Under the pieces are notes generated by a model. It worked only from the letters and a program-made list of their open reading frames with translations. It was not told where the DNA came from and did no database searches. Made by a program: the position numbers and the translations under genes. From NCBI GenBank assembly GCA_050951805.1, contig JBMNJT010000002.1, forward strand, positions 672,001 through 736,000: a stretch of DNA of 64,000 nucleotides, given 5' to 3'. This stretch comes from Bacillota bacterium. GTDB taxonomy: Bacteria > Bacillota > DTU025. Positions 15,978 to 39,978 of this stretch are shown piece after piece; position 1 is the stretch's first letter; each line of letters opens with the position of its first letter.

Positions 15978-15982
15978 GGCTG

Positions 15983-17026: not shown

Positions 17027-17068
17027 TGTGAGCATTATCGAGAGTTCGCGTGCTCTGGAGATCAGCAA

Positions 17069-17098: not shown

Positions 17099-17116
17099 AG
17101 AACCCGAGGTGATTTT

Positions 17117-17806: not shown

Positions 17807-17872
17807 CTAGGCATAATCCACCCCTGAGCGAATATAGATCTAGCAAACGGCAGGGGGGAGGCCGGACGCTAG

Positions 17873-18127: not shown

Positions 18128-18233
18128 CAGGGGTGGGTGGGAATCTGAGAAAGGCTGAGATGCGACCATCGAGAAGACCGGCATAGGCGGGCCCGCGCCG
18201 GTCCTTCCCTTAATCTGCTTTTGGGGGTGCAAC

Positions 18234-19247: not shown

Positions 19248-19259
19248 TAGATAGGAAGG

Positions 19260-22320: not shown

Positions 22321-22834
22321 CATTCGGGCTTCTTCTCAGACTAGCCGGGCAAAACTCCAATGCCCATGAATGGGGCGGCCTCCAAGTCGGCCTCTGAGTT
22401 TGCGGACGCATGCAGCCTGCAACCTCCTAGCTCCCTGCTTCTTGCGGAATGCTGCTGACCCCTTGTGCTTGTTTATGCTGCGTAAGTCCCGTTCGCCAAT
22501 CAAAAAAGTCGTGACACATGACTATTTGGTTGCCTGGAAGACGCCACCTGCAGATGAGCAACGTTTGTTGAAGGCCGACGCGGTTTGTTGCTTCCTTGAA
22601 CGGGTGAACATAGCGATCAAATGTGTTTTCAATCTTCGCCGAGTAGCGCGCCCGACCGGGGCTGCCCTCCATTATGTGTAATGTATGACAGACAAGATGT
22701 GAACTGATGGGGAAACCCCTGGGCGGGTTGAGGTTGGGAATAAGAGAAAACCCTGCATTGTGCCCCGGACTTTCACTGCCTATGAGTCGAAGGGAAGGAT
22801 GAGTCCTTTGTCGAAATCGTCGTTGGTGGTAAAT

Positions 22835-24856
22835 GTGAAGCAAAAGGTTCTAATTGCCATAACAGTGATCGGCGTGATCGTTTCCGGAACGATGTGGGTC
22901 AGGCAGAATTTGGCCGGCATGGCGTCCCAGGCGGTCAGCCTCGGCATCTCACGCGTGTTGGGCCTCTCAGATGTTCGGATAGGGCACGTGACGGCGAGGG
23001 GCATCCGTTCCATAGACCTTGCAGGTGTTTGCATAGGTGACGAGGTCAGTATCGACCATCTTCTTGTTGACTACGACGTATCTGATCTCTTTTTCGGTCG
23101 GGCCGGGTTAATAGAGAGCATTACCGGTGTGCACGCTCGCGGCGTCAGCGTCGACATCGCAGCGCCGTTAGTCCATGAACCTGCAAACCGCGGCCATGTG
23201 GAGAGAAAGAGCGGTGCGCGTTCTGATGGCGGGACGAAGACGGAACTCAGTCGGTTCAGCGCTCCCATCGAGATCTGTGATGTTCTGATTGAGTTTCCAT
23301 CAGAAGACCAGGGTTTCCGCAAGCTCGAGGTTGCGAAGGTGACCGTGGAGAGCACATTGCTGGATGGGTGCGGTGTCTGGAAGGTCGCGCTTTCAAATGC
23401 CACGTACACTGATGGTACGGCGTTTGATATTGAGGGGGCAAAGGCCTTTGTTGATATCCGCGGAGAGACGGTGGAGCTTTCCGACATCGATGCGCAACTC
23501 CTAGGAGGCAGTGTAAGGGGAAGATTGGTCCTGTGTCCAAGCGTAGATGGCCCTTTGTTTCTCACTGGAAGTCTTGACATAGCGGATCTGTGTTGCGGGG
23601 AGTCGACAATCTCCGGTTATGTTAGAATGGACGAAGATGGAGCTGTTGCGGCTCGTGGGAGTGTGAAGCTTCCGCAAGCTGGAATAGATGGGTTTCTTGA
23701 AGCAGAATACGAAGGCTGCCTGCGCGCACCGGGAGTGGAGATAGGAACAAGGAATGAAGCTAGGAGCGATGCGCGGCCTGCTGCCGAGGCAGGCAGTGCA
23801 TACGAAGCCCATGGAGTCCTCCACCTGGTCGACTTGAGTGTCGGAGAGCATCGGGCCAGCGATATAGACCTAGACTTAGATGCAAGCTATGGCGGAGGGA
23901 AAATCAAAGCCGCTATAGGCGGGGAACGCATGTCAATGGAGAGGGTTGGCAAGGCTTTGGGGCGTGCTATTCCAGTTGAAGGATGGGTTGATTGGAAAGC
24001 CGATATCGAATTTGAAGATTCGACGCTGGCCGCTGTGGTGACTATTCGTGATGGCGATCTCAGATCGGAACTATGGCCTCAGGAGTTCACGGACCTAAGC
24101 GGTTCGATAGAGGTTGCTGAGGCTATACCGAATAATGGTGCAGGTTCGCTGGAAGAGGTCAGGGTTCGCACGATTCGAGCTGCAATGGGAGGCGGAACAG
24201 TCGAGCTCTCCGGTGGAGGACAGATGTGGACCATACATGGCTTGAATTTGGAAATCGAGCATCCGCTGTTGTGCGGGTTAGTCGACATAGACGCCACAAT
24301 CCACACCGGAGAGCGGATGAAAGTCGGGGGCATTCTCAGTCTCTGCAACGCGGATGTTGATGTGGTTACTGCTGGATTTTCCAAGGCAGCTGTGATTCCC
24401 GATGCCGACCTTGACATAAAGATCGTTGTTGGTGATGGAGTGAAGGCCGTAAGGGAAGAATCCTGGGCTGAGATCATGCCCTCTGTAGTGCAGATCCAGG
24501 GAAGTGTGAGGCAACCCCGGGCTGTCGGTTATGTACAAGTGGGACCCGGGGAGGTGTATATCTGCGATATTCCTCTGGAGATTCTGTCCGGGAGGGTGGA
24601 ATTTGCGAACACTCCAGATTCAGATATCGATTTTTCTGTCGTTGCGCGTGATTCCTCTGCTGAGTTTCCCATACTGGCCACGATATATGGAAGGCCCGGC
24701 GATGTTCACCTGTCTTTCGAGCCAGCGTCGGGCGTGGAAGAAAACTTTCCGTCGGGGGAGCTTCTCATGAAACTTCTGGACGCCCGGTTGCGTCTGTATA
24801 TTCTGAGCCGGCTTGGCCAACTCGTGGGCGCGCTGCCTCAGGCGAGCCGGGATTGA
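22835..24856 (+). CDS. tamB: TamB/AsmA-like periplasm-spanning protein (short, ~670 aa)
   Basis: N-terminal TM anchor, beta-rich body, C-terminal IQGSVRQP...G.VEF...IYGRP pattern; directly upstream of bamA. Start uncertain. Confidence 0.65.
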   Translation: MKQKVLIAITVIGVIVSGTMWVRQNLAGMASQAVSLGISRVLGLSDVRIGHVTARGIRSIDLAGVCIGDEVSIDHLLVDYDVSDLFFGRAGLIESITGVHARGVSVDIAAPLVHEPANRGHVERKSGARSDGGTKTELSRFSAPIEICDVLIEFPSEDQGFRKLEVAKVTVESTLLDGCGVWKVALSNATYTDGTAFDIEGAKAFVDIRGETVELSDIDAQLLGGSVRGRLVLCPSVDGPLFLTGSLDIADLCCGESTISGYVRMDEDGAVAARGSVKLPQAGIDGFLEAEYEGCLRAPGVEIGTRNEARSDARPAAEAGSAYEAHGVLHLVDLSVGEHRASDIDLDLDASYGGGKIKAAIGGERMSMERVGKALGRAIPVEGWVDWKADIEFEDSTLAAVVTIRDGDLRSELWPQEFTDLSGSIEVAEAIPNNGAGSLEEVRVRTIRAAMGGGTVELSGGGQMWTIHGLNLEIEHPLLCGLVDIDATIHTGERMKVGGILSLCNADVDVVTAGFSKAAVIPDADLDIKIVVGDGVKAVREESWAEIMPSVVQIQGSVRQPRAVGYVQVGPGEVYICDIPLEILSGRVEFANTPDSDIDFSVVARDSSAEFPILATIYGRPGDVHLSFEPASGVEENFPSGELLMKLLDARLRLYILSRLGQLVGALPQASRD

Positions 24857-24992: not shown

Positions 24993-26747
24993 TTGAAAGA
25001 TACTAGCACCAAGCGATCCTGTTGCATACTGGCTGCCGCAATGGCGGTCGTGTTTTTGGCATCTTCTTTTACGATGGCTGCGCAATCCAAGTCTCTTGGG
25101 GTGGTCACCGCTATAGAAGTTATTGGCAATAGCAGGATTGACTCTGATATTATTACACAGGCCATAAACATTAAGGTGGGTGATGAGCTCACTGAAAGCG
25201 CCATAAGGGAAAGCTTCACCGCTATCGATGCTCTCGGCTGGTTTGCGGATCTCGGCGCCAACACCGTTCCGTACCTTGGAGGCGTGAAGCTCATCATTGT
25301 AGTGCAAGAATTTCCGGTTTTGAGCAAGATTCTAGTTAGCGGAAACGCACTAATACCTACTGAGGAGCTTCTCGGAATAATGGGGTCGAAGGTTGGCTCT
25401 CAGCTCAATGCCAATCAGCTCAGGAGTGACCTGGAGGCTTTGGGCAGCCACTACCATGACAAAGGCTACTGGGTGAGCATTGAACCATCACTTTCTGAAT
25501 CGGGTGAACTCATACTTCATCTGGTGGAATGGACTGTGTCGGAAGTCAAGTTTGCGGGGAATCAGAAAACTAAGCCGAAAGTTATCCAAAGGTGCATTGA
25601 GACAAAGCCGGGTGACTACATCAATGTCAATAAGATAAACGAGGACCGCAGGCGAATCTACATGCTTGGCGCGTTCGAGAATGTAGAGGCGAAAGTAGAG
25701 CCTGTGCCGGGGAAGTATGAATACGTGGTAACGTACGTCCTAACTGAACGGAAGACGGGCATTGCCAATCTGGCCCTGACATACAGTTCTCAGGACAAGC
25801 TTATGGGTTATATGGAGCTGGGAGATGAGAACTTCCTCGGCAATGCGCAGACGGTCAACATCAAAGCGGAGTTTGGCCGCACGAAAACCAATTATGAACT
25901 TGGCTTCTATGAACCTTGGGTCGGAGCATCCGGCAAGACTTCCATAGGCTTCAACGTCTTCAGCAAGACTTTGTCGAAGAAGTATACGCCATCTGATGAA
26001 AACGAGACTTCTTCCTCAGGGCAAGTCTTAAAGCTCGAGGAGGACCCGACGGCCTCTATCGATTATTCGCAGAAGCGGACGGGTGGAGACGTGACGATCG
26101 GCCGCACGCTTTCGCTCAACACTAAGGCGTTCGTCAAGCTCAAGATGGAAAACGCTGTTAATGACCCTGAACAGAAGCATCCTGATGTGGATTTCCCGGG
26201 CGGCGGTGCTACGCGTTCGCTTACGTTGTCGGCGGTCAATGATACCAGAGATGACCTTTGGAATCCTGCCACAGGTCACAAGTTGTCCAGTTCGCTGGAG
26301 TATGCAGGCGGAATTCTTGGCGGCGACAACAACTTTGCCAAACTTCGGGTTGATGCTTGCCAGTACTATCAGGTCCGTGATGGGCATATTCTGGCAGGTA
26401 GGGTTAGCGCCGGATATGGATTGGACGAGCTGCCTGATGATGAGCGTTTCAGGCTCGGGGGAGCGGAGACTGTCAGGGGCTACAAGTACGGCGACATCGA
26501 GGGTGATCGCATGGCCCTGGCAAACGCGGAATACCGTTTCAACATTACCAAAGGTCTGCAGGGTGTGCTGTTTTGCGATGCGGGGCAGGCGTGGAACGCG
26601 GATGGCTCTTTAGACGTTGGAAGTACTAAGGTCGGTTATGGAGCTGGCGTGAGAATCATGGTTCCGGTGCTGGGCATGATCCGTGTCGATTATGGCATCG
26701 GTGAAAAGGGAGGACAGGCCTACTTCAGCTTTGGGCAGACTTTCTAG
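24993..26747 (+). CDS. bamA: Omp85/BamA outer-membrane assembly factor
   Basis: Signal peptide, ~3 POTRA repeats (GN.RI / GN.LI / GN.KT), TVRGY loop-6 motif, C-terminal FSFGQTF. Confidence 0.93.
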   Translation: MKDTSTKRSCCILAAAMAVVFLASSFTMAAQSKSLGVVTAIEVIGNSRIDSDIITQAINIKVGDELTESAIRESFTAIDALGWFADLGANTVPYLGGVKLIIVVQEFPVLSKILVSGNALIPTEELLGIMGSKVGSQLNANQLRSDLEALGSHYHDKGYWVSIEPSLSESGELILHLVEWTVSEVKFAGNQKTKPKVIQRCIETKPGDYINVNKINEDRRRIYMLGAFENVEAKVEPVPGKYEYVVTYVLTERKTGIANLALTYSSQDKLMGYMELGDENFLGNAQTVNIKAEFGRTKTNYELGFYEPWVGASGKTSIGFNVFSKTLSKKYTPSDENETSSSGQVLKLEEDPTASIDYSQKRTGGDVTIGRTLSLNTKAFVKLKMENAVNDPEQKHPDVDFPGGGATRSLTLSAVNDTRDDLWNPATGHKLSSSLEYAGGILGGDNNFAKLRVDACQYYQVRDGHILAGRVSAGYGLDELPDDERFRLGGAETVRGYKYGDIEGDRMALANAEYRFNITKGLQGVLFCDAGQAWNADGSLDVGSTKVGYGAGVRIMVPVLGMIRVDYGIGEKGGQAYFSFGQTF

Positions 26748-26854
26748 TCTTAAGCTGGCTCATGTAGTATAATTGACGGGGCGCCGCGTCGTCGGCGCTC
26801 CTCGTTATACTGTTCTGATTGCGATTTTTGAGTTGATTGGAAAGGATGACATTA

Positions 26855-27313
26855 ATGTTCAAAAACGTGCCGAAGACTCTCCTGATTGTTTTGGTGTGTG
26901 CCATTTTGGTCGGTGCTGTTGCTGTTGTGGCTAATCTTTCGGCTGTATCGCGGGCCGCTGGCGAGGCCGCTGTCATAGGAAAAGTTGATGGGGTCAGGCT
27001 TGGACAGGAATTCCCTGCGATGCAGAAAGCTGTTGACAACATTCTCAAGCAGAAGGCTGCCTTGGAAAAGGAACTGAACACCAAGGCTGAGGGGCAGGAT
27101 CAGGAGACCCAGAGGACTTTGCTTGACCAGTATAATCTGAAGTACAATGAGTATGCAAAGCAGCAGCTGGAACCTGCGGAGAATGCTCTGAAGAGCGCCA
27201 TAGCGGCAGTCGCCAAGGAGAAGGGCGTTACCGTCGTTCTGGACTCGAGCGTTGTCCACCTTGGTGGAATAGACATGACAGACGCCGTCCTCAAAAAAGG
27301 CGGGGCGAAATAA
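26855..27313 (+). CDS. ompH: OmpH/Skp periplasmic chaperone
   Basis: IGKVD...AI.AVAKEKGVTVVLD...GGIDMTDAV; follows bamA. Confidence 0.88.
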   Translation: MFKNVPKTLLIVLVCAILVGAVAVVANLSAVSRAAGEAAVIGKVDGVRLGQEFPAMQKAVDNILKQKAALEKELNTKAEGQDQETQRTLLDQYNLKYNEYAKQQLEPAENALKSAIAAVAKEKGVTVVLDSSVVHLGGIDMTDAVLKKGGAK

Positions 27314-27510: not shown

Positions 27511-30500
27511 ATGAGGATTCTTGACAGGTATGTAGTCCACGAGTTCATGGGTCCCTTTATTCTATCTATATTGGCGTTCATCGTGATAATGCTGAGTGGG
27601 CAACTCTTCTGGCTTGTAGACCTGATAGTCCAGAAGAAAGTGCCTGTGCTCATTGTTGCTAGGATGCTCCTTTACAGCCTTCCGGGGATCGTGGTTCAGG
27701 TTTTGCCTGTTGCGGTTCTGTTTGGCGTCTTGATCGGCCTTGGCAGGCTGGCTCGCGATTCTGAACTTCAGATTATGCGGGTTTCCGGGATTCCTTTCGC
27801 CAGGATTGCTTTGCCTCTCATCGTTTTGGGGGCGGTTATGAGCGCAGTCGGATTTTGGCTCAATGAGAGCGTGGCGCCGTGGGCAACTCATCAGTCCGAG
27901 ATTATCGTCAGGGAGATGATATTTCAGGAGGCTTTTCCCGATGTCGAAGAGGATGTTTTCTTCAAGGCGCCGGGCAATCGCTATTTCTACGTGGGCAAGG
28001 CTGACCAAAAACGTGGCACGTTTGAACGTGTGATGATATACGAGACGGCTAGGGGCGAGTTTCCGCGCCTTGTCTCTGCCAGGAGTGGTCGGGCTGAGTC
28101 AGGCAAGTGGGTGCTTGAGGATGGCAGTATCCATGAGCTCGATGAGGAAGGGCATGTGCGAATGGCGATTTCCTTTGAGACTCTGGAGATTTCCCTGGAG
28201 CAGTCGCTCGATAGCTTCGCATCGAGCCAGAAGACCCCAGAGGAAATGAGCATGAAGGAACTCAAGTCCAATATCGACCTTTTTGAGAGGAGCGGGATCC
28301 GTGTAGATGCGCTCCGCGTCGATTACTATCTCAAGGTTGCCCATCATGTGGCATCTTTGGTCTTTGCCGTTCTCGGTGCCCCGCTTGTCGTGAAGTCTCC
28401 CCGACGTGGCGGCGGTTACTTCGGGGTCGTGGCGGCAGCCGTTCTCTCCTTTGCCTATTACATCGTGCAGGCTCTGGCGCGATCTGTGGCCATGAGGGGC
28501 GGCCTGTCCCCGCTTTTAGCTGCTTGGTTGCCCAATATTGTCTTTGGAGTGCCAGGTCTTTTCATGTTGTTCGCAGTTGACCGTCCCCGAATGAATTTGG
28601 CTGCAAGAAGGAGGAATTCGGGAGGGGGCGATGGGTCTGCTGGGATCAAGTTTTCCAGAGGCGGCGTTCATATGTGGCTTGGGGTATCGATCTTGACGAC
28701 TCTGTACATTTTCGCAATCTGCTCCCCTCCTGCGGTCGCAAGCAATATTCCTGTCAAGGTAGACGCCGAAAAACTTGTGTACGACGGCGCAATAGGTCTT
28801 TGGGTGATGTCGGGGAATGTGAAGATCGAGTACAAGGATCTCGTGATATCCGGAGATTACGCTGAGTTCAATATGGATCGGAAAGTTGTGGCAGTAAACG
28901 GGTCGGTCAGGGTCGTTTCAGGGCAGGATGCGCTCGCGGGCGAAAGCGCCATTTTCAACGTTTCCACGGGCGAGGTTGTGGTTGATGAGGCCTGGGCTAA
29001 GCTGACAGGCGAAGGCGTTGAAGGATTCCTGTACATGTCTGGAAGCCAGTTGCAAAAGGAAGATGATTATCTTTGGCTTTCCCATGGCTCTGTTACTACT
29101 TGCGATCTTGACAAGCCCCACTACCGTTTGGAAGTAGGGGAGATGGAGGTCTATGTTGATGACAGGATAGTCCTGAAGTCTGTCTCCTATTACGAGGGGG
29201 ATCTGAAGTTGCTGACCTTGCGGCGACTCGTGGTGCCCCTAAAGGAAGACGAGCGGTTCGAGCTTCCCAGGGTGGGATACGGTGCGTATGAGGGCTGGTA
29301 CTTGAAGACCAAGTACAACTACAAGCTGAGTGAAGACGCTTACGGATCCTTATATGCCGACTACTTCCAGCTGTTGGGCCCCGCAGTCGGCATAACTCAA
29401 AACTTGCAGTTAGGTAAGGGCGGCGTGCTCACGGCCTACCTTTACGGGTTGTGGAACACAGGTTCCGGTACCTTCGACACTACGCTCGAACTTTCTCAGG
29501 ACCTGAAGCTGCCATTTGATATAGGTGCAAAGGCCGGTTACAAACAGAGAAACTACGTCAATATTCTCGGGGATGAAATTGCTGAGCGTGCCTACAATCT
29601 CAGTCTGAATAGGCGAGTCGAGGACTCAAGCACCTCCTTTGCCGGCACGTTCAGGGAGACTGACGGAGCCACTTACGCTTCAGTCGCTAATGCAACCTTC
29701 AGGCACTCTTCAACTTTGCTCCATGACATAAAGCTTTCTTCAAATGTAGACTATAAGAAGCAGGTAAAGGACACAGACGTCACCCAGGACGTAGTAAGCT
29801 ACAAGGTGCAAGCTGACCGCGCCTACGGGGACTTCAAGGTGATGGGGCTTGCGCAGGCCCAGGTATACGTGGAAGATCCGAGTGACGTAGAGACTAAGCC
29901 GCCTCCGTGGAAGGCTCTGAAGAAACTTCCGGAGTTTACGGCTACAGCCAGCGGACTTGCTGTCGGCGAGAGTTCTCTCATCCTTGATGTGAAGGGCGTG
30001 TTTGGAAATTACGTTGAGGATGCAATTCGGAGCGGGACACGATCAGAAGTGAGTGCGGCCAAGGGGGAGCTGGATCTGACGCTCAGGACCAAGTCTCGTC
30101 AGCTTTTTCCATGGCTATCAATGGACGGATATGCACGTGGAGTCTTCGATGTCTATCAGGGCTATGGAGACCGGATGGCCGCTGTATGTTCCGTCGGGGC
30201 GTATGTAAAGCCGTTTTCCGGCACTACCCTGAGGCTCACCTATACCGAAACGGGTATCTATGGTTCGTCGCCCTTCAGGTTTGACGAAATCAATGCCGGG
30301 TCAAAGCTGGGCGGGAACCTTACGACATCGCTAGGACCGGCGAAGCTCACTTTATCGACGGGATATGATGTTGTCTCCGAAAGGTATGATCCTTTGAACG
30401 CCGCTTTGCGGCTGGATATCGCTAAAGGGCTGTCGATCGATTTTTCGGGAAGATACGATCTCGAGAGCGGGAATCCGACGTCACTTGTGGGCAAAGTCGT

Positions 30501-30822
30501 GGCCCAGCCGTCGCCTGATATCCAGGTAAAGGCCGGCGGCAGTTATGATTTTGTTCGAGGACAGATCACCAGGGTTGAGTCATCGGGAGATGTCAGGTTC
30601 AGACCCGAATGGCGTCTGCAGTGGACTGGTGTGTATGATTTCTTCAAGGGCGGTCTCGTGCGAGGAGACATAGGGATCACCCGCGATCTGCACTGCAGGG
30701 AAGTGGCTCTCACATACCAGCACACGTCGAGACGGGTGTGGCTCGAGTTCAGGCTGAAGGCATTCCCAGGCACACCTCTCGGGTTTGGCCTGGGCGAAGA
30801 AGGAATACTCTTTCAACAGTGA
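27511..30822 (+). CDS. LptF/LptG permease fused in frame to an LptD-like jellyroll plus beta-barrel
   Basis: N-terminal ~355 aa are YjgP/YjgQ (MRILDRYV, DSELQIMRVSGI, LAAWLPN). C-terminal part has LptD motifs VTTCD..PHY, LPRVGY..EGW and RDLHC. Confidence 0.88.
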   Translation: MRILDRYVVHEFMGPFILSILAFIVIMLSGQLFWLVDLIVQKKVPVLIVARMLLYSLPGIVVQVLPVAVLFGVLIGLGRLARDSELQIMRVSGIPFARIALPLIVLGAVMSAVGFWLNESVAPWATHQSEIIVREMIFQEAFPDVEEDVFFKAPGNRYFYVGKADQKRGTFERVMIYETARGEFPRLVSARSGRAESGKWVLEDGSIHELDEEGHVRMAISFETLEISLEQSLDSFASSQKTPEEMSMKELKSNIDLFERSGIRVDALRVDYYLKVAHHVASLVFAVLGAPLVVKSPRRGGGYFGVVAAAVLSFAYYIVQALARSVAMRGGLSPLLAAWLPNIVFGVPGLFMLFAVDRPRMNLAARRRNSGGGDGSAGIKFSRGGVHMWLGVSILTTLYIFAICSPPAVASNIPVKVDAEKLVYDGAIGLWVMSGNVKIEYKDLVISGDYAEFNMDRKVVAVNGSVRVVSGQDALAGESAIFNVSTGEVVVDEAWAKLTGEGVEGFLYMSGSQLQKEDDYLWLSHGSVTTCDLDKPHYRLEVGEMEVYVDDRIVLKSVSYYEGDLKLLTLRRLVVPLKEDERFELPRVGYGAYEGWYLKTKYNYKLSEDAYGSLYADYFQLLGPAVGITQNLQLGKGGVLTAYLYGLWNTGSGTFDTTLELSQDLKLPFDIGAKAGYKQRNYVNILGDEIAERAYNLSLNRRVEDSSTSFAGTFRETDGATYASVANATFRHSSTLLHDIKLSSNVDYKKQVKDTDVTQDVVSYKVQADRAYGDFKVMGLAQAQVYVEDPSDVETKPPPWKALKKLPEFTATASGLAVGESSLILDVKGVFGNYVEDAIRSGTRSEVSAAKGELDLTLRTKSRQLFPWLSMDGYARGVFDVYQGYGDRMAAVCSVGAYVKPFSGTTLRLTYTETGIYGSSPFRFDEINAGSKLGGNLTTSLGPAKLTLSTGYDVVSERYDPLNAALRLDIAKGLSIDFSGRYDLESGNPTSLVGKVVAQPSPDIQVKAGGSYDFVRGQITRVESSGDVRFRPEWRLQWTGVYDFFKGGLVRGDIGITRDLHCREVALTYQHTSRRVWLEFRLKAFPGTPLGFGLGEEGILFQQ

Positions 30823-30890
30823 GGTTGCGACATGAACACTCCGGTGTAACCTTTGGCCGTGCTGAGGGCTTGTCAGGAGGCGTGATGCTG

Positions 30891-31562
30891 ATGGACCCGA
30901 GGATTGTCAGGATAGTCAGTGTTGCCATATTGCTGGTTCTTGGTTGCCTGTACGTTTACGCTTTCGTGCTCAACAAGCCGGCCGATGAAGATCGAAGTTT
31001 TGACCCGGATCCGGACCGCGCCTCCAGTGATCTCACGTTTGGCGGCGTCAGTATCGAGGGTCGGGAAAACGGCGAGAGGGTGTGGAAGATTTCCGCGGCC
31101 AATGTGGATCTGCGAGATGGCGACGGCCATGTGGAGATGAGCGAGATTGGGCACGGCGAGATATACAGGGATGGCGAACCCTATGTCTCATTCAGAGCAT
31201 GCAAAGGCGTTTTTGATACAAAGACGGGCCAGCTGTCGCTCTCAGGAGGTGTCGATGTTTTCTCAGGAGGGCGGAAGCTGTTGAGAACGGATGAAGTGGC
31301 ATGGAAGCCCGATGACTCTAGGATTGTCATTCCAGGGCAGGCAGAGATAATTACCGAACAGGGGGTGGTCTCTGCTGCTTCTCTTCGGGTGGACGTGGCC
31401 TCCGACAAGATTTATGCCAGCGGTGACTTGACGATTCGCGAGGGGTTCGGTGGTCGAGACGTTGTCGTAAAAAGCGGAGAGATTTGTTTCGACCCTGCGG
31501 AGAACTCCTTCGAAGCATGGGGCGGGACTGAGATTGAGTTTGAGATTGGCGACGACGATTGA
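30891..31562 (+). CDS. lptC: LptC-like protein
   Basis: Single N-terminal TM plus beta-jellyroll (G...WKISA, LRTDEVAW); adjacent to lptA. Confidence 0.75.
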   Translation: MDPRIVRIVSVAILLVLGCLYVYAFVLNKPADEDRSFDPDPDRASSDLTFGGVSIEGRENGERVWKISAANVDLRDGDGHVEMSEIGHGEIYRDGEPYVSFRACKGVFDTKTGQLSLSGGVDVFSGGRKLLRTDEVAWKPDDSRIVIPGQAEIITEQGVVSAASLRVDVASDKIYASGDLTIREGFGGRDVVVKSGEICFDPAENSFEAWGGTEIEFEIGDDD

Positions 31563-31575
31563 GGGGGAGAGCGGA

Positions 31576-32256
31576 ATGAAGGGGCAGGCGCGAAGAAGAG
31601 CGATGTCTCTTGTGGTTTTGGCGGTGCTTCTGGTTTCAGCGGCCATTGTTGCGGAGGCCGCCGCGAAAAAGGTGAACCTGCAAGTTCATGGCAAGGTACG
31701 TTATGAGGGTTCCAAGGGCAGAACTATTGTAGAGGGCGGCCTGACCATACGGTATGACGACACTGTGATTACTGCGACGAACGCGGTTATAGACAATGCG
31801 GCTGAGACTGCCAAACTGACTGGCGGCGTTCTTTTAACGCAGAAGGATGTTGTACTCAATGCTGATGAGATGGATGTGGATCTCAAGAATGATACTGCTG
31901 TAGTGAAGGGAAATGTGAGGCTGGAAAAACGCGAGGAACAGGCGGAAAAGGACGAGTCCGGAAAGGCGAAGGTCTCTGTTGTGAAGATGACATGCAACAT
32001 TCTGGAGATCTCAACCAAGACTCAGGATTTTATCGCCCAGGGATCGGTCTTGATGACCAAGGATAAACAGAAAGCCCAGGCGGAAAAGGCGAATTACGAT
32101 AACGCCGGCAAAACTCTGATTTTGCAGGGTTCTGTTGCCATCGAGGACGAGGGGAACAAGACCATAAAATGTGACAGGGCGATCCTCTATACTGATAAGG
32201 AACTGGTGGAAGCGGAAGGCAAGCCTGTAGAGATCACCTTTGAGATCGAGGAGTAA
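31576..32256 (+). CDS. lptA: LptA/OstA-like periplasmic protein
   Basis: Signal peptide plus repeated jellyroll strands (LNADEM, KGNVRL, AEKANY, LILQGSV). Confidence 0.8.
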   Translation: MKGQARRRAMSLVVLAVLLVSAAIVAEAAAKKVNLQVHGKVRYEGSKGRTIVEGGLTIRYDDTVITATNAVIDNAAETAKLTGGVLLTQKDVVLNADEMDVDLKNDTAVVKGNVRLEKREEQAEKDESGKAKVSVVKMTCNILEISTKTQDFIAQGSVLMTKDKQKAQAEKANYDNAGKTLILQGSVAIEDEGNKTIKCDRAILYTDKELVEAEGKPVEITFEIEE

Positions 32257-32430: not shown

Positions 32431-32845
32431 TCGCCCGGCATATTTGTTGATCAAAGAAGTCCTGGATTGCCCGTACCCAAAGATGTTTACGTGTGAACAT
32501 AGCGAAATCGAACCGGGATTGGCTTGTCAGCTGGATAACCTGGGAGGTTGGTGGGACTGCTTTTAGGGAGTGAGGTCTAAAAGTAGAGCCGTGTACGAGG
32601 TCGGTACGCACGGTTCTGTGAGAGGGTGATGCTCCCGATTATCCCTATCGAGCTCGCCAAAAGCTGCTGTAGAATCCACAGGTTACTGATGAACGCCCCT
32701 GAAGCGGGATTCACTGGAGCTTTCAGTGCCCGTAGTTCAGCTGGCTATGTCATTTGCGGCCACATGGAAGACATTACATGGCAAAAGAGAGGTGCAAAGT
32801 GGGCACACATGCTATAATGTCGAGTGAATGGGGGGGGGTAGCTGC

Positions 32846-35257
32846 ATGTACGCCCTTGTGCGCGGTGGGTTCATACTGGACGTTGCCGCGGTGCTTCTAG
32901 TCACAATCATACTAGGATCGTTTGTAGCGGCAGGAATTGCGTCCGCTGCCGATGATTTCTTTGTTCATACAGTATCAGATGTAGTAGGCGAATACGGCGA
33001 ATACGATCTGATTGTCCACGTGAGGACTGAGTCCAGACGCGAGGCTTTGCGCGCGCTCAGGGCGACACTGCGCGCGAAGCTCCCGGGGGCCCGAGTCAAA
33101 GAGAGCGCCACCGTCTTGTCGGTGTCGAACTTCCTTGTGTCGTTGGCGAAAAAGGACGAGGAATCAGTGACAGCTTTGGTGCAGGGGGTGTCCGGCATTC
33201 CGGGGTTTGCCGGGTATACGTTCTTGCTCGAGCCTAAGGTGACCGTGAGTGGTGTCGGTTCGAAGACAGCGCCGATTGTTCAGGATAAGTTGACGCGGCT
33301 GGATGGAGTGGAGTTTGCTTTGCGCGACGGCGGAGATATTCATCTCATATGTGAGTCGCCGGAGAGTGTGAAATCTGTGGCGCAGGCGGCCGAGGCAATC
33401 CTCGGGCGCTACCAGGTGGTCGATATTAGGTTTGCGCCGAGCGCACTGGCTTCGGAAGGTGCTTTCCGGGGCCGACTTGTGCAACGCGTAGCTGCCGGGT
33501 TGGCAGGCGGGGATGTGAAGGGCCAGGTTGTGCGCGACGTGACGCCGCGGGGACAGGCCGACGAGGCCCAGGTGTTGGCTGGGGCTATGGTGAAGATGAA
33601 AGCATTCCTGGAGGCCTGGGCGCCGCAAGCTTCTATACGACTGGACGAGGGAAAGGTCAACCCTGTGCACACTGGGGCGGATACGGGGTTTTCAGGCCTG
33701 GATACAGGAGATTCTGTTGTCTTGTCTGTGGAGGATAAGCCCGTTGGATCGTTGCCGGCGCCTGAAGATATGGTGGTGTCTGTGACTGATGTCGACGGAG
33801 ATAAGGCTCGCGGAATAATAGTCGATGGGGCAAAAGAGCCCAAAGACCAGTCGTCGCAGGTTCTTTCAGCATATCTGCTGGAAGACGGTGTTGTTTCAGG
33901 CCGTGTGGGAAGCGCTACTACAAGTCGGCCCCAGGAGGACCTGTCCCGTTCACTATCGGAGGCGGAAGAGGCACTGGCACAGTACGATGCAGGGATTGCG
34001 GATGCTATGAGGGCCGCGAAGATTGGAGAGGAAGCTTTGGAATCATACGAGCGGGCCATAGACTCTCTCATTTATCTCCAAAGGGCCTTGGAGAGCATTG
34101 GCGTGGATGGCGAAGCGGACATAATGCCCATCGACGATGAGGCGGTGAGCGCGCTGCTCCATCTGACTGAAGAGGCGTTGGAGGCGATAGAAGCTCTGCG
34201 CTCCACGGCTGACGTTGTTGTAATGTTCTCAGGAAGTTATGACTCGCTCCTTGCCGATCTCGAGCTGTGGCAGGCCAGGCTAAAGTCGTTCGCTCAGAAA
34301 CTGGAGACGATACAGTCGGCTGCAACCGGCGCGGGCCAGGTGGCGGAGATGCTCAGAGATATGTCGTCTGCGGCGTCAGGAATCCTATCTACTTTGCATC
34401 AGCTGGATCCTGCCTCTTTGCGCGAGAACATCGAAGCTGCGAAAGTAAAGCTTGCTCAGATGTCGGAGGTGGATGTGGACGGCATTGCAGAGCAGGTAAG
34501 GGAGGTGAAATCCGCGCTTCCCAAGTTCGATGGGGATGAGATCGTCAGTTCTATCGGGGCCATCAACAAGCTTGTCGGGGATCAACAGGGCTCTTCCGAC
34601 AAGGTTCAACTGCTGATTGAGTCGGGGCTGACTCCTGATAAGCTAGCAACAGCCGTTGAGGAGGTGGCCGGGAAGGATGTGCTGGCAGTTTACACTATAC
34701 CTGCGGGGATAGTTCAACCAGGGGTGCGCAGTGAGGTTCAGAACCTGCTGAGGTCAGTAAAGAGCACCATATCCGGGTTGGCTGCCTGCGGAATCGTTGC
34801 TGTCTCGCTCATGGTGGACCATTCTACTGTGATTGCGGGCGCTATCGGTCTCGAAAGGAGAAGGCAGGGCGTGCTGCGTCCGGGTTTTGAGGAGTATCTT
34901 TACGGGGCTTTGGCGGGAGCGATCAGCCTTTATGCTATTGGCACAATTACCGGGTCAACGCTGGGGTCTGCAGGGGGCCCGCTATTTGCCGCGATCGGAG
35001 GCCTCTTGGGACTTGTGGGCGCCGGAGTTTCGCTCAAAATGTCGCCGGTCGACCTCGATGAGGTCGAGGCCTCTATTGCGTTTGGTATGACGGGAACGCA
35101 GATCATGAGGGAGATAATTATACCCTCCGGAAAGCCCGGGATTCTGTCCTTCATCAACCGGCCTCACGTGGTCTTCGACGGCATTGATCATGTGTCTGCC
35201 GATAGAAAAGATCGTCGGGAAGGAGGTTCAACTAGGTGCTCGCAATGCGCGATGTGA
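32846..35257 (+). CDS. Uncharacterised membrane protein: N-terminal TM, ~600-aa extracytoplasmic region with long helical segment, C-terminal TMs and EAA loop (ABC permease-like)
   Basis: C-terminal EVEASIAFGMTGTQIMREIIIPSGKPG fits the EAA-x3-G-x9-I-x-P coupling motif; overlaps the ATPase gene. Confidence 0.75.
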   Translation: MYALVRGGFILDVAAVLLVTIILGSFVAAGIASAADDFFVHTVSDVVGEYGEYDLIVHVRTESRREALRALRATLRAKLPGARVKESATVLSVSNFLVSLAKKDEESVTALVQGVSGIPGFAGYTFLLEPKVTVSGVGSKTAPIVQDKLTRLDGVEFALRDGGDIHLICESPESVKSVAQAAEAILGRYQVVDIRFAPSALASEGAFRGRLVQRVAAGLAGGDVKGQVVRDVTPRGQADEAQVLAGAMVKMKAFLEAWAPQASIRLDEGKVNPVHTGADTGFSGLDTGDSVVLSVEDKPVGSLPAPEDMVVSVTDVDGDKARGIIVDGAKEPKDQSSQVLSAYLLEDGVVSGRVGSATTSRPQEDLSRSLSEAEEALAQYDAGIADAMRAAKIGEEALESYERAIDSLIYLQRALESIGVDGEADIMPIDDEAVSALLHLTEEALEAIEALRSTADVVVMFSGSYDSLLADLELWQARLKSFAQKLETIQSAATGAGQVAEMLRDMSSAASGILSTLHQLDPASLRENIEAAKVKLAQMSEVDVDGIAEQVREVKSALPKFDGDEIVSSIGAINKLVGDQQGSSDKVQLLIESGLTPDKLATAVEEVAGKDVLAVYTIPAGIVQPGVRSEVQNLLRSVKSTISGLAACGIVAVSLMVDHSTVIAGAIGLERRRQGVLRPGFEEYLYGALAGAISLYAIGTITGSTLGSAGGPLFAAIGGLLGLVGAGVSLKMSPVDLDEVEASIAFGMTGTQIMREIIIPSGKPGILSFINRPHVVFDGIDHVSADRKDRREGGSTRCSQCAM

Positions 35258-36000
35258 AAAAGGCGTACGGATCGCGCCAGGCGCTTTCAGGGTTCGATCT
35301 CGACGTACACGAGGGCGAGACTGTAGTTATCATGGGGCCGTCGGGATGCGGCAAGTCTACAGCCCTACGGTGCATTATCAGGCTGACAGAGCCCGACTCC
35401 GGGTCAATACTGTGGCGGGGCCGGTCGGTTTTGGGTATGTCTTCTGATGAGCTGAGATCGTACAGACGCAGGACAGGCTTTGTGTTCCAGCGTTCGAATC
35501 TCGTGTCGCGCCTGAGCGTCCTCGAAAATGCCATGCTGCCCGGTGTAATGGCAGGGGTCTCCATTGATGAGGCTAAACGGCTTGCATACGGCGCTTTGGA
35601 GAAGGTGGGGATTGAGCGTCTGGCGGCAGCATATCCACCGAATCTGTCAGGCGGTGAGATGCAAAGGGCAGCGATAGCTCGCGCCATTGCCCAAGAGCCT
35701 GAACTCCTGCTTTGGGATGAGCCTACGGCCTCGCTCGACCCTATCCTCGTGGTGGACGTGCTCAAGCTGATAGAGTCACTTGCCCGTTCGCTCGGATCCA
35801 CCATGATAATAGTCACTCACGAGGTCCAGTTCGCCCTGCGCGTTGCGGACAAAGTTGTGCTCGTGTCCGATGGAGCGGTCGTGGACGAAGGTAAACCTGA
35901 GGATGTGTTGCTCACGCCGGGCTCGGATTTGGCCCGTCAGTATTCGGAGTCTTTGTCATATTTCGCAGGCCATCGGGAGGAGAAGGAGGTGGGCCTGTAG
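35236..36000 (+). CDS. ABC transporter ATP-binding protein (GlnQ/MetN-like)
   Basis: GPSGCGKS, LSGGEMQR, WDEPTASLD, VTH. Confidence 0.95.
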   Translation: MLAMRDVKKAYGSRQALSGFDLDVHEGETVVIMGPSGCGKSTALRCIIRLTEPDSGSILWRGRSVLGMSSDELRSYRRRTGFVFQRSNLVSRLSVLENAMLPGVMAGVSIDEAKRLAYGALEKVGIERLAAAYPPNLSGGEMQRAAIARAIAQEPELLLWDEPTASLDPILVVDVLKLIESLARSLGSTMIIVTHEVQFALRVADKVVLVSDGAVVDEGKPEDVLLTPGSDLARQYSESLSYFAGHREEKEVGL

Positions 36001-36064
36001 AAACCCGATATGCTCAGTAGACACTTGACGAGCAGCATTTCTGCTGCAAGTGGGGTGGTTAAAT

Positions 36065-37601: not shown

Positions 37602-38339
37602 ATGAGGAGTGAGTTCTTGTTGGGTGTGCGGGCCACCGACCTAGTAAAGAGCTTCCAGGGAAGACGAGTGGTAGACGGAGCCAGTTTGGAGCTCGAACGT
37701 GGCGAGGTTGTGGGCCTGTTGGGCCCAAATGGAGCGGGAAAGACCACTACCTTCTATATAATGGTCGGGCTTGAATCGTCTGATTCGGGTTGTGTTACCA
37801 TCGACGGCGTGGATGTTGTGCGAAGACCTGTGTGGCAGCGGGCTCGGTTGGGGTTGGGCTATCTTGCGCAAGAGCCGTCCATATTCCGGAAGCTTACTGT
37901 AGAACAGAACATCATGGCTGTGTTGCAGATTTCCACGGGTAGTTCCGGTGAGCGGACAGAGCGCCTGGAAAGTCTTCTTGAGCAGTTCGATTTAGTCGGT
38001 TTGCGTCGACAGATGGGGTTCACATTGTCAGGCGGAGAGCGCAGGCGAGTGGAGATAGCGCGCGCGCTTGCGGCAGAGCCTCGGTACATATTACTGGACG
38101 AACCCTTCACCGGAGTCGATCCAATAGCCGTAGGAGAGTTGCAGCGCATAGTGGAGAATCTGAAGGAAGCAGGCCTTGGGGTGCTCATTACTGACCACAA
38201 TGTAAGAGATACTCTGGCCATTGTGGATCGGGCCTACATCATGCATGAAGGCCGCACGATTGTGTCAGGGACCGCGCGGGAGGTTTCGGAGGACGCTTTT
38301 GCAAGGCGTTTCTACTTAGGAGAGCGGTTCACCCTCTAA
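37602..38339 (+). CDS. lptB: Lpt ABC transporter ATPase
   Basis: GPNGAGKTT, YLAQEPSIFRKL, LSGGERRRVEIAR, ITDHNVRDTL, YLGERF. Confidence 0.96.
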   Translation: MRSEFLLGVRATDLVKSFQGRRVVDGASLELERGEVVGLLGPNGAGKTTTFYIMVGLESSDSGCVTIDGVDVVRRPVWQRARLGLGYLAQEPSIFRKLTVEQNIMAVLQISTGSSGERTERLESLLEQFDLVGLRRQMGFTLSGGERRRVEIARALAAEPRYILLDEPFTGVDPIAVGELQRIVENLKEAGLGVLITDHNVRDTLAIVDRAYIMHEGRTIVSGTAREVSEDAFARRFYLGERFTL

Positions 38340-39690: not shown

Positions 39691-39978
39691 CCTGTGGGCG
39701 GCTGGTGGAGTATTCAAAAATCTTCTGATTCATGAAGGAGTTGACCAGTGTTTGGAGAATATGAAATTGCAGGTATACTCTTGGTCATACCTATGTTCTG
39801 ATCGGCCCTAACAACGGCAGGAGAAAGCTGTGGTTGTTTGGCCGTATTGTACGCAAAAGGGCTCGTCCCCGTTTTGGTTGCAGGGCGAGGAAACATGAGC
39901 ACTCGTCCTGGTCACCTCTATCGGCATTGAGTTCTTAGCGTCTAGTTGATCAGGATCAATTTGAGGGGGGAAGGACTA

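What the first reader, a model, noticed from the sequence alone, without database searches (positions are those of the whole stretch)
27511..30822. LptF/G-LptD polyprotein with an internal signal peptide: inner- and outer-membrane ends of the bridge in one ORF
Seen: one 1103-aa frame with no stop joins a complete LptF/G permease to an LptD-like domain. The linker is basic/Gly-rich (AARRRNSGGGDG...), then hydrophobic (MWLGVSILTTLYIFAICSPP), ending in AVA|S at aa 410/411 (nt 28740/28741), a typical signal peptidase I site. It is the only lptF/G gene in the window. Inference: either SPase I releases LptD for Bam insertion and fixes the F:D stoichiometry, or the protein stays tethered across the periplasm. 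Internal initiation at ATG 28672 (weak GAGG SD) is a third option. I recall unusually long YjgP/YjgQ proteins in Thermotogota, so the fusion itself may not be unique.
Basis: partly seen in the sequence, partly recalled or inferred. Interest (0 to 1): 0.85.

Follow-up and report, generated by a model that had tools for sequence, protein, structure and literature searches.

The report
LptF/G permease fused to LptD
One gene in an uncultured two-membraned Bacillota bacterium encodes both the inner-membrane pump subunit and the outer-membrane pore of a lipid-export bridge, joined by what looks like a retained secretion signal; a similar fusion is already described in Thermotoga.

Summary
Window 27511-30822 (+) is one 1103-aa frame. 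It holds a complete LptF/G permease (aa 1-358), a basic linker, a hydrophobic segment ending in AVA|S (aa 410/411), and a full LptD-type jellyroll plus barrel (aa 411-1103). The fusion is real. It is open in 16 of 20 genomes of the same order; three others are cut by contig ends and one has frameshifts inside the barrel. Independent DNA assemblies are identical, and a variant contig from an RNA library keeps the frame open. It is the only LptF/G and the only LptD-like gene in a 97%-complete genome.

More distant relatives carry the two genes adjacent but separate. There the LptD-like protein has an ordinary N-terminal signal peptide exactly where the fused proteins have their internal hydrophobic segment. 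The fusion therefore looks like loss of a stop codon with the signal peptide retained. Cleavage by signal peptidase I into a 7-helix LptF/G and a free outer-membrane LptD is the best-supported mechanism, but it is inferred, not shown.

Internal initiation is not conserved. LpxC, LpxK and WaaA were not found, so the cargo is probably not LPS. A tree needs at least three gains or losses of fusion. An LptF/G-LptA-LptD fusion was published for Thermotoga maritima in 2023, so this is a new member of a known kind.

The parts
27511..30822 (+). Whole fused ORF, 1103 aa plus stop: LptF/G :: internal signal peptide :: LptD-like protein
   Evidence: ORF. (family hits). (AlphaFold2 model, mean pLDDT 89.1).
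27511..28584 (+). LptF/G permease domain, aa 1-358. Six TM helices with a periplasmic beta-jellyroll (strands at aa 149-228) between TM3 and TM4.
   Evidence: PF03739 E 2.4e-94. DSSP of the model. VIA-align Z 28.7 to LptG chain 6mjp_G, 340 residues aligned.
28585..28659 (+). Basic, Gly-rich linker, aa 359-383 (7 Arg/Lys). It corresponds to the n-region of the former LptD signal peptide and is predicted to be cytoplasmic.
   Evidence: Sequence. pLDDT below 50 over aa 361-385. It is the most variable part of the family in length and sequence.
28660..28740 (+). Hydrophobic segment plus c-region, aa 384-410 (GGVHMWLGVSILTTLYIFAICSPPAVA). This is a seventh TM helix or internal signal peptide. The predicted SPase I site lies after A410, between nt 28740 and 28741.
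   Evidence: Helix at aa 384-403 and disordered aa 403-411 in the model. The same pattern occurs in all 21 distinct fused sequences of the clade. It sits at the same place as the N-terminal signal peptide of split orthologues.
28741..29250 (+). OstA/LptD_N-type beta-jellyroll, aa 411-580. Contains the invariant TTC(D/E)L..PH motif; Cys531 is at nt 29101-29103.
   Evidence: NCBIfam LptD PRK03761 at aa 418-553, E 0.0011, far below its cut-off. LptA chain 2r1a_C, Z 14.8, rmsd 1.8 A over aa 412-532. Invariant columns.
29251..30822 (+). Large LptD-type beta-barrel, aa 581-1103. About 26-31 DSSP strands between aa 587 and 1082. Contains the conserved DLHCRE motif; Cys1062 is at nt 30694-30696.
   Evidence: Profile alignment to the LptD barrel.
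24993..26747 (+). BamA (Omp85 domain with POTRA repeats), the likely insertase for the released LptD-like barrel
   Evidence: Pfam Omp85 E 1e-49 and POTRA E 4.5e-30.
26837..27313 (+). Skp/OmpH-like periplasmic chaperone
   Evidence: PF03938 E 4e-11.
30738..31562 (+). LptC-like protein. The start codon is uncertain; the listed GTG overlaps the end of the fused ORF.
   Evidence: PF06835 E 2.3e-5. TIGR04409 E 4.8e-8, 32.7 bits, below its cut-off of 38.
31534..32256 (+). LptA-like periplasmic OstA protein
   Evidence: PF03968 E 1.7e-9. TIGR03002 E 1e-8, below cut-off.
37602..38339 (+). LptB, the ATPase of the transporter
   Evidence: TIGR04406 at 336.9 bits against a cut-off of 240.

Best explanation
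The gene is a natural polyprotein of an Lpt-type trans-envelope lipid exporter in an uncultured diderm Bacillota lineage found in anaerobic digester, sludge and landfill metagenomes.

Shown: one frame encodes the organism's only LptF/G permease and its only LptD homologue. This fusion is fixed across the whole order. More distant relatives have lptF/G immediately followed by a separate lptD-like gene, whose product starts with a normal Sec signal peptide. In several of those relatives the two genes are in the same frame with one stop codon between them.

Inferred origin: the stop codon was lost, and the LptD signal peptide became an internal segment.

Inferred mechanism:
1. The six LptF/G helices insert into the inner membrane, leaving the C-terminus and the Arg-rich linker in the cytoplasm.
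2. The former signal peptide inserts N-in/C-out as a seventh helix and starts Sec/SecA export of the roughly 690-aa LptD part.
3. Signal peptidase I (two S26 genes are in the genome) cuts after AVA410.
4. The released protein is handed to the neighbouring Skp and BamA and folds into the outer membrane.
5. LptF/G keeps the signal peptide as a C-terminal seventh helix and pairs as a homodimer with LptB.
6. LptC and LptA, encoded directly downstream, bridge to the LptD jellyroll.

The fusion would fix a 1:1 ratio of permease to pore, which suits a symmetric homodimer with two bridges. The cargo is probably a lipid other than LPS, because no LpxC, LpxK or WaaA was found.
For: Domain identity.

Single copy.

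Order-wide fusion.

Real DNA, also present in RNA libraries.

Adjacency elsewhere. Of the loci that hold both domains, 35 have separate genes less than 1.5 kb apart, in Bacillota/Limnochordia, Halobacteroidaceae, Atribacterota and Armatimonadota. In 9 of those 35 the genes are in the same frame. Six loci have the genes 1.5-3.3 kb apart.

Signal-peptide homology. Split orthologues begin with a basic n-region, about 20 hydrophobic residues and a small-x-small site, 0-5 residues before the conserved jellyroll start. An example is L018, MRRTW...GNAEA|QD. All 21 distinct fused sequences of this clade have the same pattern at the same place. Ala is at -1 in 21 of 21. Position -3 is A in 14, V in 4, and S, I and L in one each. 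Position -2 is free, and a Pro or Gly usually sits at -4 to -7. The surrounding linker varies freely in length and sequence. The sites were picked by my own script, which prefers Ala.

Other fused lineages. The linkers of the 23 other fused cluster representatives show a basic-then-hydrophobic pattern, most ending in a small-x-small site (not in P0090 or P0037, and P0092 is partial); the Thermotogae ORFs L050-L052 show it too.

Topology. The model has six helices before the linker, then a helix at aa 384-403, a disordered stretch at aa 403-411, and the first jellyroll strand at aa 416. That leaves only about 12 residues between membrane and jellyroll.

Genomic context. LptC, LptA, LptB, Skp and BamA are all encoded nearby. 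SPase I is present.

Published parallel. The T. maritima fusion protein was reported as significantly enriched in the toga fraction (PMC10160955, passages). That is what a released LptD part would give.

Cargo. LpxC, LpxK and WaaA were not found in the genome. LpxC was found in 0 of 21 genomes of the order and in 5 of 5 same-phylum genomes that have separate LptF/G.
Against: No experiment or proteomic datum shows cleavage. I had no signal-peptide predictor.

My loose (-3,-1) rule is not discriminating. It is met by 35 of 47 linker segments, but also by 165 of 268 ordinary hydrophobic runs inside the LptF/G domains.

The uncharged stretch is long, 17-36 residues and typically 26. That is the length of a stable membrane anchor, although the closest split orthologues have similar lengths (21-42).

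The only published view of such a fusion draws it as one envelope-spanning polypeptide. Its main text contains neither 'cleav' nor 'signal peptide'.

Pfam LptD (PF04453) does not hit the protein or the genome, and no LptE was found. It is therefore a divergent LptD relative.

Profile A3 used against the PDB includes sequences that carry PF04453.

The link between fusion and absence of LpxC is not general. G093 has a fused gene, two separate LptF/G genes and LpxC.
Confidence: 0.6

Rival explanations
1. Uncleaved tether. The 1103-aa chain stays whole, with the helical LptF/G part in the inner membrane and the barrel in the outer membrane. It would form a covalent envelope-spanning transporter, as drawn for the Thermotoga maritima protein.
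For: [quoted passage not shown] The hydrophobic segment is long enough for a stable anchor. Nothing here demonstrates cleavage.
Against: Only about 12 residues separate the end of helix 7 (aa 403) from the first jellyroll strand (aa 416). From recalled LptD structures, the jellyroll is a few nanometres long and its N-terminal edge points away from the barrel. A barrel sitting in the outer membrane could then hardly remain tied to the inner membrane across a periplasm. Separate LptC and LptA genes are retained next to the fusion. The small-x-small site with Ala at -1 is kept in a linker that otherwise drifts freely, and it matches the cleavable signal peptides of the split orthologues.
Confidence: 0.2
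2. Internal translation start. The LptD part is made mainly from its own start codon inside the long ORF (ATG 28672 or ATG at aa 361), so the fusion protein is a minor or irrelevant product.
For: In this window, ATG 28672 has GAGG 10 nt upstream. A Met also occurs at aa 361 (RPRM), where some relatives have Met too.
Against: No in-frame ATG/GTG/TTG with a Shine-Dalgarno motif is conserved in the linkers of the 11 fused loci of the clade. L008 has no start codon at all between the end of helix 6 and the predicted site. The nearest relatives lack the Met388 equivalent. A protein starting at Met388 would have no basic n-region. The frame is kept open across the junction throughout the order, which would be unnecessary if the two parts were translated separately.
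Confidence: 0.07
3. Artefact or decaying gene. A lost stop codon from sequencing or assembly error, or a pseudogene.
For: One relative, G018, has two frameshifts inside the barrel region.
Against: The frame is open in 16 of 20 same-order genomes, at 42-78% identity over the LptD part among database proteins. The sequence is identical in contigs of two DNA runs of different studies. A variant contig from an RNA library differs mostly at third codon positions. The AlphaFold2 model is confident for both domains.
Confidence: 0.01

Closest known systems
Thermotoga maritima 'pABC permease' G4FGC1 (Sexton et al. 2023, PNAS, PMC10160955; passages read, supplements not seen)
   Same: One ORF of about 1100 aa with LptF/G first, then an LptA/OstA-type jellyroll, then an LptD-type barrel. 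The organism has no LPS synthesis genes. The Thermotogae ORFs fetched here (L050-L052, 1110-1127 aa) also have a basic-hydrophobic-small-x-small linker, for example ...VTSFA|SD in L051.
   Different: The phylum differs. My C-domain HMM aligns only to the jellyroll part of the Thermotogae proteins (profile positions 4-203), so they were left out of the tree and common origin is untested. The paper proposes an uncleaved envelope-spanning protein and does not discuss an internal signal peptide.
Canonical LptB2FGC-LptA-LptDE machine of Proteobacteria (for example PDB 6mjp, 9kn3, 4q35)
   Same: The folds of both halves match: Z 28.7 to LptG and Z 19-20 to LptD over the whole mature chain. LptB, LptC-like and LptA-like genes are present. 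A Cys in the jellyroll (TTC, C531) and one near the C-terminus (DLHC, C1062) align with the Cys positions of solved LptD.
   Different: There is one LptF/G gene instead of an F and G pair. LptD is fused to it. No LptE, LpxC, LpxK or WaaA was found. Pfam PF04453 does not match.
Lpt system of diderm Firmicutes (Negativicutes and Halanaerobiales; Antunes et al. 2016, PMC5007114; Acetonema longum study 2026, PMC13018214; passages read)
   Same: A single LptF/G, proposed to act as a homodimer. No LptE. The lpt genes sit in an outer-membrane gene cluster with BamA and Skp, in a sporulating lineage.
   Different: Those organisms make LPS and have LptD, where identified, as a separate protein. In A. 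longum it is a 480-aa, 16-strand form. Here the LptD part is full-size and fused.
Bacterial membrane polyproteins split at an internal signal peptide, such as Bradyrhizobium FbcH (cytochrome b-c1). Recalled from memory; not found in my literature search.
   Same: A polytopic inner-membrane protein followed by an internal signal sequence and an exported partner of the same complex.
   Different: The exported partner there stays at the inner membrane. Here it would travel to the outer membrane.

Membership tests
LptF/LptG permease (PF03739) | Match to the family HMM above its curated cut-off | tested here: met
   316.7 bits against a cut-off of 27.9, aa 6-353 on profile positions 1-351 of 353.
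LptF/LptG permease (PF03739) | Six TM helices with a periplasmic beta-jellyroll between TM3 and TM4 | tested here: met
   DSSP of the AlphaFold2 model. Z 28.7 with 340 of 354 residues of LptG chain 6mjp_G aligned.
LptF/LptG permease (PF03739) | Assignable to LptF or to LptG, with a second paralogue for a heterodimer | tested here: not met
   TIGR04408 LptG scores 218.9 against a cut-off of 240. TIGR04407 LptF scores 197.9 against 230. There is one copy in the genome. It is an undifferentiated LptF/G, presumably a homodimer.
LptF/LptG permease (PF03739) | Cognate LptB ATPase | tested here: met
   TIGR04406 at 336.9 bits against a cut-off of 240, at 37602-38339.
LptD (LPS-assembly outer-membrane protein) | Match to Pfam LptD (PF04453) or to the NCBIfam LptD equivalog above cut-off | tested here: not met
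   No PF04453 hit on the protein or in the genome. PRK03761 scores only 17.3 bits against a cut-off of 683. DUF3769 scores 17.3 against 20.5.
LptD (LPS-assembly outer-membrane protein) | Profile-level homology to solved LptD over jellyroll and barrel | tested here: met
   Profile A3 against the PDB: 8h1r_A E 2.1e-34; 5iv9_A E 8.3e-33 over profile positions 2-646 of 670. Caveat: A3 contains PF04453-bearing sequences, and the single sequence alone found nothing.
LptD (LPS-assembly outer-membrane protein) | Fold: N-terminal OstA jellyroll joined to a very large (26-strand) barrel | tested here: met
   The top 15 Foldseek hits are all LptD, best E 6.7e-27. VIA-align gives Z 20.3 to 9kn3_A, aa 411-1102 against residues 45-783. 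I could not count strands exactly; there are 26-31 DSSP strands after aa 587.
LptD (LPS-assembly outer-membrane protein) | Cysteines linking jellyroll and barrel C-terminus | tested here: inconclusive
   C531 and C1062 are invariant in A1. In A3, C531 is invariant and C1062 is at least 90% conserved. They align with the TRC and SCC positions of chain 8h1r. Whether a disulfide forms cannot be tested here.
LptD (LPS-assembly outer-membrane protein) | LptE plug partner and LPS as substrate | tested here: not met
   No PF04390 LptE. No LpxC, LpxK or WaaA in a 97%-complete genome. LpxC was found in 0 of 21 genomes of the order.
LptF/G-LptD fusion of the Thermotoga type | Single ORF ordered LptF/G, then jellyroll, then barrel, in an organism without LPS genes | tested here: met
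LptF/G-LptD fusion of the Thermotoga type | Common descent of the fusion event with the Thermotogae genes | not tested
   The Thermotogae C-terminal parts align only over the jellyroll with my HMM and were left out of the trees.
Sec/SPase I-cleaved signal peptide (internal) | Basic n-region, hydrophobic h-region, and small residues at -3 and -1 after a helix breaker | tested here: met
   The pattern alone is weak: 165 of 268 ordinary hydrophobic runs also pass my loose rule.
Sec/SPase I-cleaved signal peptide (internal) | Actual cleavage | not testable with these tools
   This needs proteomics or biochemistry.

The most novel reading that the evidence does not exclude
The chain is not cut. A single polypeptide would be embedded as helices in the inner membrane and as a beta-barrel in the outer membrane, forming a covalent contact site between the two membranes through which a non-LPS lipid is pumped. 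The fused lineages, including Thermotogae, would then have a locally collapsed periplasm at these sites.
Probability: 0.15. Interest if true: 0.85.

Novelty: new member of a known kind. Interest (0 to 1): 0.55.

Why it matters
Three points follow if the reading holds.

First, LptD-like genes sit next to lptF/G, or are fused to it, in diderm Bacillota, Halanaerobiales relatives, Atribacterota, Armatimonadota and Thermotogae. Two comparative studies did not find LptD in such 'atypical diderms' (Antunes 2016, PMC5007114; Léonard 2022, PMC8871954; passages). Public annotations name these proteins only as permeases. This bears on whether the ancestral outer membrane already had a complete Lpt bridge.

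Second, the state fused versus separate changed at least three times on the trees, and every fused form examined has a signal-peptide-like joint. This gives a simple, testable model: a polyprotein processed by signal peptidase I that supplies the inner- and outer-membrane ends of one machine in a 1:1 ratio. It also offers a different reading of the Thermotoga protein than the published one.

Third, the system works in a lineage without detectable lipid A genes. It is therefore a candidate for studying what Lpt-type bridges carry when LPS is absent.

Tried and rejected
1. A single-sequence phmmer search of aa 411-1103 against PDB sequences gave only three chance-level hits, E 0.17-0.79. The profile search was needed.

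2. I tried a crude cleavage-site statistic: does a hydrophobic, uncharged run end in a small residue at -1 and a permitted residue at -3? It gave 35 of 47 for the linkers and 165 of 268 for ordinary hydrophobic runs inside the LptF/G domains. It does not discriminate. Several 'NO' rows arose only because the run continued past the site. I do not use it as support.

3. I considered that fusion goes with loss of LPS. It holds for the window's order (LpxC in 0 of 21) and for the one Thermosipho genome. It fails in two ways. Four genomes with split genes also lack LpxC (those of L018, L025, L033 and L044). G093 has a fused 1056-aa gene together with two separate LptF/G genes and LpxC.

4. Internal initiation as a family-wide mechanism is rejected. 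An AGGAGG at 28608-28613 in the linker codons is followed by no in-frame start.

5. A lipoprotein signal is not supported. The Cys in ...FAIC|SPP is not conserved in relatives.

6. RNA run X16 covers only 20 of 30 bins, and no X16 contig crosses the junction. These are contigs, so the gaps say nothing.

7. I could not establish the taxonomy of the two other fused clades.

8. Literature searches for the fusion and readings found it only in Sexton et al. 2023. None of the 15 papers listed held 'Limnochordia'. A search for a bacterial precedent of an internal signal peptide in a polyprotein returned viral and unrelated papers. The peptide coverage of G4FGC1 in the supplements of PMC10160955 could bear directly on cleavage.

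Full report
**1. Observation**

Window 27511-30822 (+) is a single 1103-aa ORF with an ATG start. Residues 6-353 match Pfam LptF_LptG end to end, E 2.4e-94. The junction reads ...AVDRPRMNLAARRRNSGGGDGSAGIKFSRGGVHMWLGVSILTTLYIFAICSPPAVA|SNIPVKVD..., with A410 ending at nt 28740. These include the in-frame ATG at 28672 and the GAGG 10 nt upstream of it.

**2. The C-terminal part is an LptD homologue**

Sequence libraries give only faint signals:
- NCBIfam LptD PRK03761, E 0.0011 over aa 418-553.
- DUF3769, below its cut-off.
- No PF04453 hit on the protein or anywhere in the genome.
- A single-sequence search of PDB sequences found nothing meaningful.

Deeper searches are clear. A database search with aa 411-1103 found three groups:
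- 16 fused proteins at 42-100% identity.
- Stand-alone proteins of 726-758 aa at 24-25% identity over 96-99% of the query.
- More distant proteins, four of which carry PF04453.

A profile of 57 such C-domains (A3) hits solved LptD chains at E 2.1e-34 (8h1r) and E 8.3e-33 (5iv9, profile positions 2-646 of 670). LptA chains score about 1e-8 on the jellyroll. The profile includes PF04453-bearing rows, which helps it.

An AlphaFold2 model of the full protein, built on a 95-row alignment, has mean pLDDT 89.1. Its top 15 Foldseek PDB hits are all LptD, best E 6.7e-27, followed by LptG and LptF chains. VIA-align gives the following:
- Z 28.7 to LptG chain 6mjp_G over aa 1-357.
- Z 20.3 to E. coli LptD chain 9kn3_A, aa 411-1102 against residues 45-783.
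- Z 14.8, rmsd 1.8 A, to LptA over aa 412-532.

Residues 411-1103 therefore correspond to an entire mature LptD, jellyroll plus large barrel. Two cysteines, C531 in TTCDL and C1062 in DLHCRE, are invariant or nearly so. They align with cysteines of solved LptD.

**3. The fusion is real and fixed in the lineage**

The genome is 2.75 Mb in 8 contigs and 97% complete. It has one PF03739 match. My own HMMs find no second LptF/G or LptD-like frame among 7920 open frames.

All 20 other genomes of the same order have a single above-threshold LptF/G:
- In 16 of them the open frame is 1018-1142 aa.
- G002 and G007 are cut by contig ends after the junction.
- G011 is cut inside the permease.
- G018 has an intact junction but two frameshifts in the barrel.

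Fourteen DNA runs from six studies (landfill, sludge and anaerobic digester metagenomes) hold all sampled words of the stretch. Six RNA-library runs from four studies hold part of it. Contigs of X2 and X9 are identical to the window. Either may be the source sample, so this is not independent support. A 1424-nt contig of RNA run X15 crosses the junction with 14 substitutions, 12 of them at third codon positions, and no gaps. Contigs from an RNA library do not prove transcription.

**4. Context**

The gene lies in an outer-membrane cluster. In order it contains:
- BamA.
- Skp.
- The fusion.
- An LptC-like gene.
- An LptA-like gene.
- An unassigned 809-aa ORF.
- An ABC ATPase.
- A weak LpxB-related glycosyltransferase.
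- LptB (TIGR04406, 336.9 bits against a cut-off of 240).

Sporulation genes (SpoIID, an M23 peptidase, a SpoIVB-like peptidase) and MreB lie upstream.

No LptE, LpxC, LpxK or WaaA was found. LpxC was found in 0 of 21 genomes of the order. It was found in all 5 same-phylum genomes that have separate LptF/G genes of about 365-420 aa. The lineage thus looks like a diderm without lipid A, as Thermotogae are reported to be (PMC10160955).

**5. Relatives and origin**

A scan of one genome per species returned 80 loci. I classified them with HMMs of the two halves and read the junctions:
- A single ORF occurs only in the window's clade (uncultured 'Bacillota bacterium' and 'Clostridia bacterium DTU025' records) and in three Thermotogae records. 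The Thermotogae ORFs are 1110-1127 aa and only their jellyroll aligns.
- In 35 loci of other Bacillota/Limnochordia, Halobacteroidaceae, Atribacterota and Armatimonadota, lptF/G is followed within 1.5 kb by a separate lptD-like gene. Six more have it 1.5-3.3 kb away.
- In 9 of the 35 the two genes share a frame. In L018 the sequence reads ...ADRPK*RQERNTLMRRTW..., so one point change would join them.
- The separate LptD-like proteins start with ordinary signal peptides. Examples are L018 MRRTWLTTVFVLAILWGLAVGGNAEA|QD, L025 ...NGSAA|EE and L033 ...AAVLA|EP, ending 0-5 residues before the conserved jellyroll start.

The fused proteins carry the same three-part element at the same place. I infer that the fusion arose by loss of the lptF/G stop codon and that the LptD signal peptide was retained.

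**6. How widespread, and how many times**

An exhaustive HMMER search of 1.84 billion cluster representatives gave 1102 hits at E below 1e-30. I classified 149 of the best 150:
- 23 have LptF/G followed by the LptD-like domain.
- 41 are tandem LptF/G-LptF/G forms.
- 63 are single permeases.
- 22 are stand-alone LptD-like proteins.

A FastTree of 126 C-domains puts the fused rows in three well-supported groups. There are 20 rows with the window, 8 rows near Halanaerobiales sequences, and 7 rows of unknown origin. The tree needs at least three changes of state. A 42-row IQ-TREE gives the same count. An AU test rejects holding all fused rows together, p 0.0004. I named that group after seeing the first tree, and the simpler model was used. 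A tree cannot tell gains from losses.

One genome of the second group, G093, has the fused gene (1056 aa, linker ...STPGVQA|EK), two separate LptF/G genes and LpxC. Fusion is therefore not tied to LPS loss.

**7. Mechanism**

LptF/G has six helices, so its C-terminus is cytoplasmic (model; topology of solved LptFG recalled). The linker holds seven Arg/Lys. A helix is predicted at aa 384-403, a disordered stretch at aa 403-411, and the first jellyroll strand at aa 416.

The best reading is that this segment acts as an internal, N-in/C-out signal sequence and starts export of the LptD part. Signal peptidase I, with two S26 genes in the genome, would then cut after AVA410. The mature protein would go through Skp to BamA.

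Arguments for cleavage:
- The segment is positionally homologous to cleavable signal peptides of the split orthologues.
- Ala is at -1 in 21 of 21 distinct fused sequences of the clade, with A/V/S/I/L at -3 and a free -2, usually after a Pro or Gly. The rest of the linker varies from about 10 to 40 residues. My script favours Ala when choosing the site.
- Most linkers in the other fused clades (not P0090 or P0037) and those of Thermotogae show the same anatomy.
- A 12-residue tether cannot plausibly let a barrel sit in the outer membrane while its jellyroll tip is held at the inner membrane. This is geometric inference.
- LptC and LptA are retained.
- The T. maritima protein was found enriched in the toga fraction.

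Arguments against:
- No direct evidence exists.
- My loose site rule is also met by 62% of ordinary hydrophobic runs.
- The hydrophobic stretch is long.

I put cleavage at about 0.6, an uncleaved tether at about 0.2, and internal initiation as the main route at about 0.07. The remainder covers mixed or other outcomes. Internal initiation ranks low because no start codon with a Shine-Dalgarno motif is conserved.

**8. Comparison with the literature and verdict**

The closest known case is the T. maritima 'pABC permease' G4FGC1, described as a fusion of LptF/G, LptA and LptD domains in an LPS-free organism and drawn as an envelope-spanning protein (PMC10160955; passages read; neither 'cleav' nor 'signal peptide' occurs in its main text). 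I found no other mention of such a fusion in five searches.

Antunes et al. 2016 reported a single LptF/G and no clear LptD or LptE in diderm Firmicutes. Léonard et al. [quoted passage not shown] A 2026 study of Acetonema longum describes an LptF/G homodimer, a 16-strand LptD and no LptE.

The present gene is therefore a new member of a known kind. New here are four points:
- The fusion occurs and is fixed in a Bacillota order.
- The two genes are widely adjacent in Terrabacteria-type diderms.
- The state fused versus separate changed at least three times.
- Every fused form examined has a signal-peptide-like joint, which predicts processing.

Interest is moderate, 0.55.

Noticed in passing
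window 32828-35257 and 35236-36000 (+): An 809-aa ORF has no Pfam or NCBIfam match. It overlaps by 22 nt a generic ABC ATPase whose best matches are GlnQ- and LolD-like and below cut-offs. The pair sits between the LptA-like gene and the LpxB-related gene. It may be a second transporter of the envelope cluster.
   Followed up: partly
window 22760-24856 (+): A 698-aa ORF directly upstream of BamA has no Pfam or NCBIfam match.
   Followed up: partly
window 36050-37330 (+): A glycosyltransferase weakly related to LpxB (TIGR00215 E 3e-11, TIGR03492 E 9e-9, both far below cut-off) in a genome where LpxC, LpxK and WaaA were not found. It may make a different glycolipid.
   Followed up: partly
window 15878-21209 (+): SpoIID, an M23 peptidase, MreB and a SpoIVB-like S55 peptidase lie just upstream of the outer-membrane cluster. 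This suggests a sporulating diderm lineage.
   Followed up: no
window 39946-43644 (+): A 1232-aa protein with an N-terminal SLH domain, preceded by a DUF3084 coiled-coil protein at 38365-39690.
   Followed up: no
window 3219-4502 and 46858-48285 (+): Two transposase-type genes, DDE_Tnp_1 and UPF0236.
   Followed up: no
window 28608-28613: A perfect AGGAGG lies within the Arg codons of the linker. The next ATG (28631) is out of frame, so the motif is probably only a by-product of AGG/AGA Arg codons.
   Followed up: yes
L093 1162-4332 (-), genome G093: A fused LptF/G-LptD-like gene (1056 aa) coexists with two separate LptF/G genes and LpxC. This genome may run two Lpt-type systems. An LptA-like gene lies directly downstream.
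   Followed up: partly
L099 (G018:C10:442500-447500): The fused gene has an intact junction, but its barrel part is spread over three frames (two frameshifts) in a 10-contig assembly. This is either indel errors or a decaying gene.
   Followed up: partly
L022: The record is titled 'Betaproteobacteria bacterium', but its lptF/G and lptD-like pair groups tightly with Bacillota MAGs (L017, L021, L023). The bin label or the contig assignment is probably wrong.
   Followed up: no
L039, L043, L044, L049, L053, L057, L059 (Atribacterota): The LptD-like proteins of one Atribacterota group are about 990-1030 aa. They carry an extra acidic N-terminal region of about 330 aa before the jellyroll.
   Followed up: no
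P0088, P0091, P0093 and about 38 other representatives: Tandem LptF/G-LptF/G fusions of about 760-830 aa are common: 41 of the 149 best representatives. Some sources name them LptG/LptF.
   Followed up: no
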